Below are positions 48,674-49,084 of a DNA stretch of 64,000 nt, one piece after another (position 1 is the first letter of the stretch; each line of letters opens with the position of its first letter). A program made the translations under genes and the position numbers. The stretch comes from a phage. Location: assembly GCA_019385495.1 (NCBI GenBank), contig GCA_019385495.1_4102.1. One strand, given 5' to 3'. The notes below the pieces were generated by a model. That model searched no databases. It was not told the origin of the DNA and saw nothing but the letters and a program-made list of their open reading frames with translations.

Positions 48674-49084
48674 ATGATTGATATGGAAGGAACTCTGGTG
48701 TATGATCCAGATCGTGGCACTATGAAAAAGAAGAAGGACTTCTGGTTAGTACTACAACTTCCATTACAGTTGGTTAGATACTACCAGTACTTCATCAGAA
48801 CTGACTTACATATTGATATTAAAGACCCACAATGGGGAGCACATGTCAGTATCGTTCGTGGTGAAGTGCCACCAAATCCAGAGTACTGGAAAAAATACGA
48901 TGGAATGAAAGTAAAGATAAAGTTCAATCCTTGTATTGAGATAGTAAAAGATAAAAAGAATCCAGGTTCATTCTTTATCATTGAATTTGAAGATGATTTC
49001 ATCACACATATTAGAAATGAACTAGGACTACCAACCAAGTACTTTAAATATCACATCACTGTAGGTAGAACCTACTACGATTAA
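48674..49084 (+). CDS. 2H phosphoesterase superfamily protein
   Basis: Two H-x-S/T-x motifs (GAHVSIV and YHITVG) about 75 aa apart in a 136 aa protein. Confidence 0.5.
   Translation: MIDMEGTLVYDPDRGTMKKKKDFWLVLQLPLQLVRYYQYFIRTDLHIDIKDPQWGAHVSIVRGEVPPNPEYWKKYDGMKVKIKFNPCIEIVKDKKNPGSFFIIEFEDDFITHIRNELGLPTKYFKYHITVGRTYYD

What the first reader, a model, noticed from the sequence alone, without database searches (positions are those of the whole stretch)
48674..49084. Small 2H phosphoesterase, candidate cyclic-nucleotide or 2',5'-phosphodiesterase
A 136 aa protein with two HxS/T motifs (HVSI, HITV) at the spacing typical of the 2H superfamily. This family includes viral 2',5'-oligoadenylate phosphodiesterases and, as I recall, the phage anti-CBASS nuclease Acb1, so this may be an immune-signal-degrading anti-defence enzyme.
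Basis: partly seen in the sequence, partly recalled or inferred. Interest (0 to 1): 0.6.

Follow-up and report, generated by a model that had tools for sequence, protein, structure and literature searches.

The report
Small phage 2H phosphoesterase, not Acb1
This gene of a giant E. coli phage encodes a real but untested two-histidine phosphoesterase from a known family; it most likely cleans up broken RNA ends rather than destroying bacterial alarm signals as phage T4 Acb1 does.

Summary

The protein is not a member of the Acb1 family:
- It gives no hit to Pfam PF23474.
- The profile-profile match to Acb1 is only 18% probable and covers one motif.
- Both motifs are HxS/TxxR, where Acb1 has HxTxxY.
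- There is no C-terminal lid.

It belongs instead to Pfam 2H-SAK (PF22547), a large, mostly stand-alone phage family of over 1,000 clusters.

In independent phage lineages its relatives lie beside five unrelated phosphomonoesterase types, RNA ligases, Pnkp, CCA-adding enzyme, Thg1, PTH2 and macro domains, and one is fused to YqeY. The distal HxTxxR motif matches E. coli ThpR.

Best reading, confidence about 0.5: an RNA 2',3'-cyclic phosphodiesterase for tRNA/RNA end healing. Cleavage of immune signals or of Appr>p remains possible. It is a new member of a known kind, of modest interest.

The parts
48674..49084 (+). 136-aa stand-alone 2H phosphoesterase of the 2H-SAK-like family; orthologue of 121Q gp531
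48842..48859 (+). Proximal catalytic motif H57-V-S-I-V-R62 (HxSxxR), on predicted strand 57-62
   Evidence: H57 is invariant in 121 of 121. Position 59 is S in 86 and T in 35. R62 is present in 97 of 121, with K in 5 more. Codons read directly.
49052..49069 (+). Distal catalytic motif H127-I-T-V-G-R132 (HxTxxR), on predicted strand 126-132
   Evidence: H127 is invariant in 121 of 121. T129 is present in 118 of 121. Position 132 is R in 66 and K in 29 of 121. It has the same extended form as ThpR 125-HxTxxR-130, where the Arg is essential (PMC4201822).
48689..48715 (+). Conserved N-terminal strand and turn, G6-x3-Y10-D-P12-x-R14, specific to this family
   Evidence: In 121 members: G6 in 113, Y10 in 106, P12 in 118, R14 in 81. 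Its role is inferred to be in the substrate pocket.
49220..50179 (+). Context: LysM + phage lysozyme, syntenic downstream neighbour
   Evidence: Pfam. The order is conserved in all Rak2-like loci.
50197..50529 (+). Context: HPF/RaiA ribosome-hibernation factor homologue
   Evidence: Pfam Ribosomal_S30AE at 3e-10.
52761..53873 (+). Context and inferred partner: CCA-adding tRNA nucleotidyltransferase with no detectable HD phosphoesterase domain
   Evidence: Only PolyA_pol and PolyA_pol_RNAbd match. It lies 2.3-3.6 kb from the 2H gene in the Rak2-like loci and 0.65 kb away in L035.
53981..54382 (+). Context: Nudix hydrolase
   Evidence: 121Q gp540 annotation. Syntenic.
55212..55688 (+). Context: macro domain (Appr-1''-p processing type)
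   Evidence: Pfam Macro at 17.7 bits, weak. 121Q gp544 annotation. Found about 5.3 kb from the 2H gene in 21 loci.
33730..36000 (+). Context: RlaP RNA-repair nucleotidyltransferase with a LAGLIDADG insertion
   Evidence: Pfam RlaP at 1e-14 and LAGLIDADG_3.

Best explanation
The ORF encodes a minimal, catalytically competent, metal-independent 2H phosphoesterase of the 2H-SAK-like family.

Proposed mechanism, inferred by analogy with ThpR:
- The two lobes each bring an HxS/TxxR strand into a central cleft.
- One histidine activates water, and the other protonates the leaving ribose oxygen.
- The +5 arginines stabilise the pentacoordinate phosphate.

The most likely substrate is an RNA (tRNA) 3' end carrying a 2',3'-cyclic phosphate, left by host metal-independent RNases such as anticodon nucleases or other toxin and defence RNases.
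- The enzyme opens the cyclic phosphate to a phosphomonoester.
- A separate phosphomonoesterase then removes it. In this phage the candidate is the HAD phosphatase domain of the T4-type Pnkp.
- That leaves a 3'-OH end for the phage's HD-less CCA-adding enzyme, RlaP or the Rnl1 ligase.

Shown here: the fold, the motifs, their conservation, the family assignment and the gene neighbourhoods. Inferred: the substrate, the product, the partners and the biological role.
For: 1. Family. Pfam 2H-SAK (PF22547) matches this protein at 25.6 bits, 113 of 121 diverse members at E<=1, and 25 of 28 close homologues precomputed. The only other 2H models hit are LigT_PEase (11 members) and 2_5_RNA_ligase2 (8 members).

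3. Active-site signature. The distal H127xTxxR132 equals ThpR 125-HxTxxR-130, where R130A is inactive. That extended motif is shared with PH0099 and TT0787 but not with Usb1, AKAP18, CNPase or the Appr>p CPDase (PMC4201822). Position 132 is R or K in 95 of 121 members.

4. Neighbourhoods in independent lineages.
- In 15 non-Asteriusvirus Rak2-like loci the order is RNA ligase (PF09414), DUF2828/DUF7788, small ORF, 2H, lysozyme, (HPF), CCA enzyme, Nudix, Grx, (YqeY).
- L035: PTH2, 2H, HAD_SAK_2 with overlapping start, CCA enzyme.
- L036: 2H then HD_4.
- L042: 2H, one ORF, RtcB, one ORF, kinase + Metallophos.
- L043 and L058: a T4-like Pnkp 0.3-0.4 kb away.
- L094 and L104: Metallophos_2 within 0-0.8 kb.
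- In 17 of 26 loci of another large phage group a His_Phos_1 phosphatase lies nearby on the same strand, downstream in 14 of the 17, and EF-Ts lies upstream.
- L112 and L113: Thg1, with a Macro gene adjacent in L113.
- P0035 is a 2H-YqeY fusion.

Five unrelated phosphomonoesterase folds next to the same 2H gene fit a two-step process: open the cyclic phosphate, then remove it.

5. Repair kit in this phage lineage. There is a T4 Rnl1-type ligase and a T4 Pnkp-type kinase-phosphatase; the Pnkp gene ends at the window's first bases. There is also RlaP and a CCA enzyme in which no HD domain was detected.

6. Literature. Iyer et al. predict this role for 2H domains in jumbo phages (PMC7824862 and PMC9503650).
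Against: - No member of this family has been assayed, and Pfam's name is itself a computational prediction.
- In this phage the 2H gene has no phosphatase or ligase within 1 kb. The RNA ligase/DUF2828 block that precedes it in other Rak2-like phages is absent. Rnl1 and Pnkp lie about 50 kb upstream.
- T4-type Pnkp can already heal 2',3'-cyclic ends (title of PMC3592404, listed), so a separate CPDase looks partly redundant.
- T4 has the same trio of Rnl1, Pnkp and a small 2H protein beside tRNA genes. There the 2H protein turned out to be the anti-CBASS nuclease Acb1.
- Several family contexts are uninformative: a primase/helicase or ClpS next to the gene, and bacterial contigs.
- The panel-based neighbour search was not compared with a random-gene control.
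- The proximal motif has R where ThpR has the base-stacking F48.
Confidence: 0.5

Rival explanations
1. Immune-signal nuclease working like Acb1, though not a member of its family. The enzyme would cleave cyclic di- or trinucleotides (CBASS), cyclic oligoadenylates (type III CRISPR) or similar messengers. The ribose 2'-OH would attack the phosphodiester, giving a 2',3'-cyclic intermediate and then a linear 3'-phosphate product. This would disarm an abortive-infection defence.
For: - The size (136 against 152 aa) and the His-His spacing (70 against 69) resemble Acb1.
- 2H/LigT-like folds have been recruited repeatedly for immune evasion (PMC11410667).
- T4 shows that a phage with Rnl1 and Pnkp can use its small 2H protein for anti-CBASS.
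- No T4-type Acb1 was detected anywhere in the 121Q genome; the best hmmsearch E-value was 0.21. The niche could therefore be open.
- An Acb5 gene lies 4 kb from a family member in L112.
Against: - None of 122 sequences matches Pfam Acb1 PF23474.
- hhalign against the Acb1 alignment gives 18% probability at motif level only.
- Arg or Lys replaces the near-invariant Tyr at +5 of both Acb1 motifs.
- There is no C-terminal lid.
- The Rak2-like Yersinia phage fHe-Yen9-04 carries both a separate Acb1-annotated protein and an orthologue of this gene, so the two are not interchangeable.
- An adjacent phosphomonoesterase, ligase or CCA enzyme is not needed for signal destruction.
Confidence: 0.17
2. 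ADP-ribose 1'',2''-cyclic phosphate (Appr>p) phosphodiesterase, or another enzyme of the NAD/ADP-ribose network. The enzyme would open the cyclic phosphate made when a Tpt1/KptA-type transferase removes a 2'-phosphate from repaired RNA. It would hand Appr-1''-p to the phage macro domain and Nudix hydrolases.
For: - A macro domain lies about 6 kb downstream in the window and about 5.3 kb away in 21 related loci.
- A Macro gene overlaps the end of the 2H gene in L113.
- Nudix genes are syntenic.
- Sir2 plus Nudix genes are in the window.
- ART-PolyVal and NADAR lie near the gene in L039.
- The role of 2H enzymes on 1''-2'' cyclic ADPr is described in PMC9503650.
Against: - No KptA/Tpt1 gene was seen near any family member or in the 121Q annotation.
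- The Cpd1/Arabidopsis CPDase clade has Tyr, not Arg, at the position of ThpR R130.
- Phosphatase, ligase and CCA neighbours are commoner than ADPr-related ones.
- This role is compatible with the RNA-repair reading rather than exclusive of it.
Confidence: 0.15
3. RNA-processing nuclease or ligase of another 2H type. This could be a Usb1-like 3' exonuclease trimming RNA tails, a 2',5'-phosphodiesterase, or a reversible 2'-5' ligase.
Against: - The scores are weak and do not discriminate.
- Bacteria are not known to use 2'-5' oligoadenylate/RNase L signalling (general knowledge).
- ThpR, once called a 2'-5' ligase, acts as a hydrolytic CPDase.
- No sequence-level relationship was found.
Confidence: 0.06

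Closest known systems
Pfam PF22547 '2H-SAK' (2H phosphoesterase domain of Swiss-Army-Knife RNA-repair proteins; a computational family with no assayed member that I could find)
   Same: It is the only Pfam family that matches: 25.6 bits here, and 113 of 121 relatives at E<=1. UniRef already names the Yersinia phage orthologue 'Swiss Army Knife 2H phosphoesterase domain-containing protein'. In L035 the 2H gene overlaps a HAD_SAK_2 gene, which amounts to a split SAK.
   Different: This protein scores just below the gathering cut-off, and only residues 89-136 align. It is stand-alone, with no HAD_SAK partner nearby in this phage. It also has a family-specific N-terminal GxxxYDPxR strand.
E. coli ThpR/LigT and archaeal PH0099 (RNA 2',3'-cyclic phosphodiesterases)
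   Different: No significant profile match: hhalign gives 1.2%, and hmmsearch against the PDB gives E about 1. The proximal motif is HxSxxR, not HxTxxF. The protein is about 40 residues shorter.
Phage T4 / FBB1 Acb1 (anti-CBASS nuclease, Pfam PF23474)
   Different: No PF23474 hit. hhalign gives 18% at motif level only. The +5 residue is R/K rather than Y. There is no C-terminal lid. The two co-exist as separate genes in a related jumbo phage.
Fungal and plant tRNA ligase CPD domains, and yeast Cpd1 / Arabidopsis CPDase
   Same: They are 2H enzymes that open 2',3'-cyclic or 1'',2''-cyclic phosphates in a heal-and-seal pathway together with a kinase, a ligase and a macro domain. The same partner types are found near this family.

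Membership tests
2H phosphoesterase superfamily | Two H-x-S/T motifs flanked by hydrophobic residues, one per lobe | tested here: met
   H57-V-S-I and H127-I-T-V. This ORF is the only one of 85 in the window with the pattern, and it occurs in 0.02% of shuffles.
2H phosphoesterase superfamily | Both histidines conserved across homologues | tested here: met
   H57 and H127 are invariant in 29 and in 121 sequences.
2H phosphoesterase superfamily | Duplicated alpha+beta fold with each motif on a beta-strand | tested here: met
2H phosphoesterase superfamily | The two histidines face each other across the active-site cleft | not testable with these tools
Pfam PF22547 2H-SAK | Score at or above the gathering cut-off of 27 bits | tested here: inconclusive
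   This protein scores 25.6 bits (E 1.6e-5), with only the C-terminal half aligned. Of 28 close homologues, 25 carry the precomputed PF22547 label. Of 121 relatives, 113 hit at E<=1.
Swiss-Army-Knife RNA-repair system | 2H domain fused or adjacent to a SAK-type HAD phosphatase or another end-healing module | tested here: not met
   No such gene lies within 1 kb in the window. The feature is met in relatives: L035 HAD_SAK_2, L036 HD_4, L043/L058 Pnkp and cluster-0 His_Phos_1.
Acb1 (Pfam PF23474) | Sequence match to the Acb1 model or profile | tested here: not met
   No PF23474 hit at E<=10 for this protein, and PF23474 is not among the families listed for the 121 relatives. hhalign against the Acb1 alignment gives 18% over 31 columns. 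A local Acb1 HMM does not hit the ORF.
Acb1 (Pfam PF23474) | HxTxxY in both motifs (Y49 and Y118, each in 18 of 19 sequences) | tested here: not met
   R62 and R132 occupy these positions here.
Acb1 (Pfam PF23474) | C-terminal extension forming a lid over the cyclic dinucleotide (residues 145-152) | tested here: not met
   The protein ends at residue 136, nine residues after H127. The lid is described in PMC9117128.
Acb1 (Pfam PF23474) | Cleavage of 3'3'-cGAMP and related CBASS signals | not testable with these tools
   This requires a biochemical assay.
ThpR/LigT clade of RNA 2',3'-CPDases | Distal extended motif HxTxxR | tested here: met
   H127-I-T-V-G-R132, with R or K in 95 of 121. The motif is defined in PMC4201822.
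ThpR/LigT clade of RNA 2',3'-CPDases | Proximal extended motif HxTxxF (base-stacking Phe) | tested here: not met
   The motif here is H57-V-S-I-V-R62, with Arg in place of Phe.
ThpR/LigT clade of RNA 2',3'-CPDases | Significant sequence or profile match to LigT_PEase or ThpR | tested here: not met
   This protein has no LigT_PEase hit, and only 11 of 121 relatives hit it weakly. hhalign against ThpR gives 1.2%.

The most novel reading that the evidence does not exclude
The stand-alone 2H-SAK-like family has more than 1,000 clusters at 50% identity, mostly in large phages. It could be a second lineage of phage nucleotide-signal nucleases, independent of Acb1. Its HxS/TxxR-HxTxxR active site would then degrade a defence messenger, such as a cyclic oligonucleotide, a 2',3'-cyclic NMP or a cyclic ADPR-type signal, rather than healing RNA ends. 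The adjacent phosphatases would complete the destruction of the signal.
Probability: 0.15. Interest if true: 0.7.

Novelty: new member of a known kind. Interest (0 to 1): 0.33.

Why it matters
The result matters in three ways.
- Annotation. If the RNA-repair reading holds, hundreds of 'hypothetical' genes in Asteriusvirus and Rak2-like genomes get a sensible annotation.
- Biology. It would suggest that jumbo phages carry a modular kit for tRNA 3'-end healing, in which a 2H cyclic phosphodiesterase, an interchangeable phosphomonoesterase and an HD-less CCA-adding enzyme sit alongside the classical T4 Pnkp/Rnl1 pair. That would be relevant to how phages resist tRNA-cleaving defences.
- A caution about fold similarity. 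'A small phage 2H protein with Acb1 as its best structural hit' is not enough to call an anti-CBASS gene. Family models, extended active-site motifs and neighbourhoods place this protein elsewhere.

The family is large and has never been assayed, so a simple substrate panel would settle a prediction that has stood since comparative-genomics work in 2016-2022.

Tried and rejected
- phmmer and profile searches against PDB sequences gave no significant hit. The circovirus capsid and aminotransferase matches are noise.
- NCBIfam and PADLOC gave no hits.
- hhalign against the single sequences of T4 Acb1 and E. coli ThpR was uninformative, at 0.4-1.2%.
It was replaced by a degenerate DNA pattern for WGxH[IV][ST][IV][IV]RGE, which returned 60 loci, all of them true family members.
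- The afdb50 fold library was unavailable.
- Full-text searches for '2H-SAK' and 'Swiss Army Knife' with 2H returned nothing. The 2016 Burroughs & Aravind paper is not held, so my description of the SAK concept rests on Pfam names, two later Aravind-lab papers and my own memory.
- The promoter and terminator scan around the gene found nothing above shuffled expectation.
- tblastn with a divergent Acb1 returned only T4-like phages in the rows shown, so it did not help decide whether Asteriusviruses carry an Acb1.
- A second HxS/T-pair ORF in 121Q (gp282, 107 aa) has no Pfam or family-HMM support and was set aside as probable chance.
- I considered that the ORF might be a fragment or a pseudogene. 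I rejected this because the full length is conserved across all homologues.

Full report
**Observation**

The window is part of an Asteriusvirus ('Rak2-like') jumbo myovirus of E. coli. Bases 47500-50500 are 99.5% identical to Escherichia phage SP27 and 97% identical to phage 121Q. The ORF at 48674-49084 (+) exists as described: an ATG start, 136 aa and an AGGT Shine-Dalgarno-like sequence upstream. It is the orthologue of 121Q gp531, annotated 'hypothetical protein'.

The sequence carries H57-V-S-I and H127-I-T-V. A strict motif of hydrophobic-H-hydrophobic-[ST]-hydrophobic, present twice at a spacing of 55-100, is found in this ORF alone among the 85 ORFs of at least 100 aa in the window. 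It appears in 0.02% of shuffles of the protein.

**Is it a 2H enzyme?**

- **Family models.** Pfam gives one relevant hit, PF22547 '2H-SAK', at 25.6 bits against a cut-off of 27. PHROG 12204 matches end to end but has no known function. NCBIfam and PADLOC give nothing.
- **Close homologues.** Twenty-eight homologues of 37-96% identity come mostly from Rak2-like jumbo phages of Salmonella, Xanthomonas and Yersinia. Twenty-five of them carry the precomputed PF22547 label.
- **Size of the family.** A profile search of 1.84 billion representatives found 1,062 clusters at E<=1e-3 and 448 at E<=1e-10. Nearly all are stand-alone proteins of 130-170 aa.
- **Conservation.** In an alignment of 121 diverse members, H57 and H127 are the only invariant columns. 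T129, G63, R114, G118, W72, P12 and G6 are at least 90% conserved.

The observation and the superfamily assignment are therefore sound. No solved structure matches at the sequence level.

**Is it Acb1?**

Acb1 has its own Pfam family, PF23474, and every T4 Acb1 homologue retrieved carries it. Several tests separate this protein from that family:

- Neither this protein (E<=10) nor its 121 relatives match PF23474. The relatives instead hit 2H-SAK (113 members), LigT_PEase (11) and 2_5_RNA_ligase2 (8).
- Profile-profile comparison of the family with an Acb1 alignment gives 18% probability over 31 columns. It aligns our distal motif with Acb1's proximal one, so only the generic repeat is recognised.
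- Acb1 has HxTxxY in both halves, with Y49 and Y118 each present in 18 of 19 sequences. This family has H-[IV]-[ST]-[VI]-[VI]-R-G-E and [FLY]-H-[LIM]-T-[IVL]-G-[RK].
- Acb1 closes a lid formed by residues 145-152 over cGAMP (PMC9117128). This protein ends nine residues after H127.
- Yersinia phage fHe-Yen9-04, a Rak2-like relative, has both an orthologue of this gene (P0016) and a separate 148-aa protein that UniProt names Acb1.

An Acb1 HMM finds nothing in the whole 121Q genome, with a best E-value of 0.21, and the family HMM finds only gp531. I therefore do not file the protein under Acb1. This lowers the claim 'it is an Acb1'. It lowers the claim 'it works like Acb1' by less.

**What the surroundings say**

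*Close relatives.* In 15 non-Asteriusvirus Rak2-like loci the gene order is conserved: RNA ligase (PF09414), DUF2828/DUF7788, a small ORF, 2H, (170-aa ORF), lysozyme, (HPF), CCA-adding enzyme, Nudix, glutaredoxin, (YqeY), and further downstream macro, PTH2 and gp13. The window keeps the part from 2H through lysozyme, HPF, CCA enzyme, Nudix, Grx, macro and a PTH2-like ORF to gp13. It lacks the ligase/DUF2828 block, which is replaced by small ORFs without Pfam hits.

*More distant family members* sit in different arrangements:

| Locus or group | Neighbours of the 2H gene |
|---|---|
| L035 | PTH2, 2H, HAD_SAK_2 (overlapping start), CCA enzyme |
| L036 | 2H, then HD_4 one base later, with Metallophos_2 nearby |
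| L042 | 2H, one ORF, RtcB, one ORF, kinase + Metallophos |
| L043, L058 | T4-like Pnkp 0.3-0.4 kb away, plus Sir2 and a tRNA synthetase |
| L094, L104 | Metallophos_2 at 0-0.8 kb |
| 26-locus group from contigs of up to 480 kb | His_Phos_1 phosphatase on the same strand in 17 loci (downstream in 14), EF-Ts upstream in 15 |
| L112 | Thg1 and DUF2828, with Acb5 4 kb away |
| L113 | Thg1, one ORF, 2H, Macro (overlapping), AlkB-like |
| L039 | ART-PolyVal and NADAR |
| P0035 | 2H-YqeY fusion |

Some contexts are uninformative.

*The recurring theme.* A cyclic phosphodiesterase lies next to one of five structurally unrelated phosphomonoesterases: HAD, HD, calcineurin-like, histidine phosphatase or Pnkp. 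RNA ligases and enzymes that rebuild tRNA ends (CCA enzyme, Thg1) are often close by. This matches the 'syntax' of RNA end healing proposed for jumbo phages by Iyer et al. (PMC7824862 and PMC9503650).

*This phage lineage.* It also encodes a T4 Rnl1-type ligase and a T4 Pnkp-type kinase-phosphatase immediately upstream of the window. Within the window it encodes an RlaP repair nucleotidyltransferase and a CCA enzyme in which no HD domain was detected.

**Mechanism**

E. coli ThpR shows how such an active site works (PMC4201822):
- His43 protonates the O3' leaving group.
- His125 activates water.
- Arg130 of the extended distal motif HxTxxR is essential.
- The product is an RNA 2'-phosphate.

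The distal motif here, H127-I-T-V-G-R132, has exactly that form. According to that paper the form is shared with PH0099 and TT0787, but not with Usb1, AKAP18, CNPase or the Appr>p CPDases. The proximal motif has Arg where ThpR has the stacking Phe48, so nucleobase recognition must differ. Candidates for that role are the family-specific residues Y10, W24, Y36/Y37 and W72, but this is inference only.

[quoted passage not shown] Removal of the phosphate would follow, by Pnkp or another phosphatase. CCA addition or ligation would then complete the repair. The steps shown here are the fold, the motifs, the conservation, the family placement and the neighbourhoods. The substrate, product and partners are inferred.

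**Caveats and rivals**

- T4 is a warning. It also has Rnl1, Pnkp and a small 2H gene beside its tRNA cluster, and that gene is the anti-CBASS nuclease Acb1.
- T4-type Pnkp already heals cyclic ends, so redundancy is a real objection.
- The neighbour analysis used a hand-made panel and had no random-gene control.
- I give about 0.5 to RNA end healing. An Acb1-like immune-signal nuclease gets about 0.17, and a role on Appr>p or in the ADP-ribose network gets about 0.15. The latter is supported by the macro, Nudix and ART/NADAR neighbours, but no KptA gene was seen. Other 2H activities get about 0.06.

**Novelty and verdict**

- The family is already modelled in Pfam, and UniRef already labels the orthologues.
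- The presence and predicted role of 2H domains in jumbo phages are published.
- What is added here is the explicit exclusion from Acb1, the HxS/TxxR-HxTxxR signature and the pattern of phosphatase displacement around stand-alone members.

This is a new member of a known kind. It is worth a simple biochemical test but is not surprising. Interest: 0.33.

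Noticed in passing
window 33730-36000 (+): This 756-aa RlaP RNA-repair nucleotidyltransferase (PF10127, residues 13-131) carries a LAGLIDADG_3 hit at residues 551-610. The 121Q orthologue gp506 is only 410 aa. This phage therefore appears to have an intein or homing-endonuclease insertion in the gene.
   Followed up: partly
window 52129-52755 (+): A 208-aa ORF with no Pfam hit lies directly upstream of the CCA-adding enzyme, where 121Q has only a 40-aa gp538. It is probably an inserted mobile gene.
   Followed up: partly
window 13840-14598 and 14595-15146 (+): A Sir2 gene (PF02146, 4e-20) overlaps the start of a Nudt16-like Nudix gene (PF22327, 8e-19). This is an NAD/ADP-ribose pair of the type discussed for phage RNA repair.
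   Followed up: partly
window 50197-50529 (+): The phage encodes an HPF/RaiA ribosome-hibernation factor homologue (Ribosomal_S30AE, 3e-10). It is syntenic with the 2H gene across several Rak2-like phages.
   Followed up: no
window 56029-56406 (+): This 125-aa ORF gives a 31% tblastn match to the PTH2 (peptidyl-tRNA hydrolase) gene of locus L029, but Pfam PTH2 does not hit it. It is either a divergent PTH2 or something else.
   Followed up: partly
L048:1897-3039 and L048:4136-5068 (121Q 201797-204968, just upstream of the window start): These are a T4 Rnl1-type RNA ligase (RNA_lig_T4_1 + T4_Rnl1_C) and a T4 Pnkp-type kinase/HAD phosphatase. Together they form the classical tRNA anticodon-loop repair pair. 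The Pnkp gene ends at the window's first bases.
   Followed up: yes
L051-L109 (26 loci, e.g. L100:10475-11239 and L109:4510-5631): In a large group of other big phages the family member has a His_Phos_1 histidine phosphatase close by on the same strand and a phage-encoded EF-Ts upstream. GroES and an intein-bearing AAA protein also lie nearby.
   Followed up: partly
L029:6222-7814 and equivalents in L006-L020: A 530-aa DUF2828/DUF7788 protein always sits between the RNA ligase and the 2H gene in non-Asteriusvirus Rak2-like phages. From memory, DUF2828 is TROVE/Ro-like, which would make it an RNA-binding repair cofactor. I did not verify this here.
   Followed up: no
L046:43365-43685 (121Q gp282, outside the window): This is the only other ORF in the 121Q genome with two hydrophobic-H-x-[ST]-hydrophobic motifs (CHVSV and LHCTV, 59 residues apart). 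It is only 107 aa and has no Pfam or family-HMM support, so it is probably chance.
   Followed up: partly
L112:1652-1903: An Acb5 (PF26761, anti-CBASS) gene lies 4 kb upstream of a family member, on a contig that also has Thg1 and DUF2828 genes.
   Followed up: no
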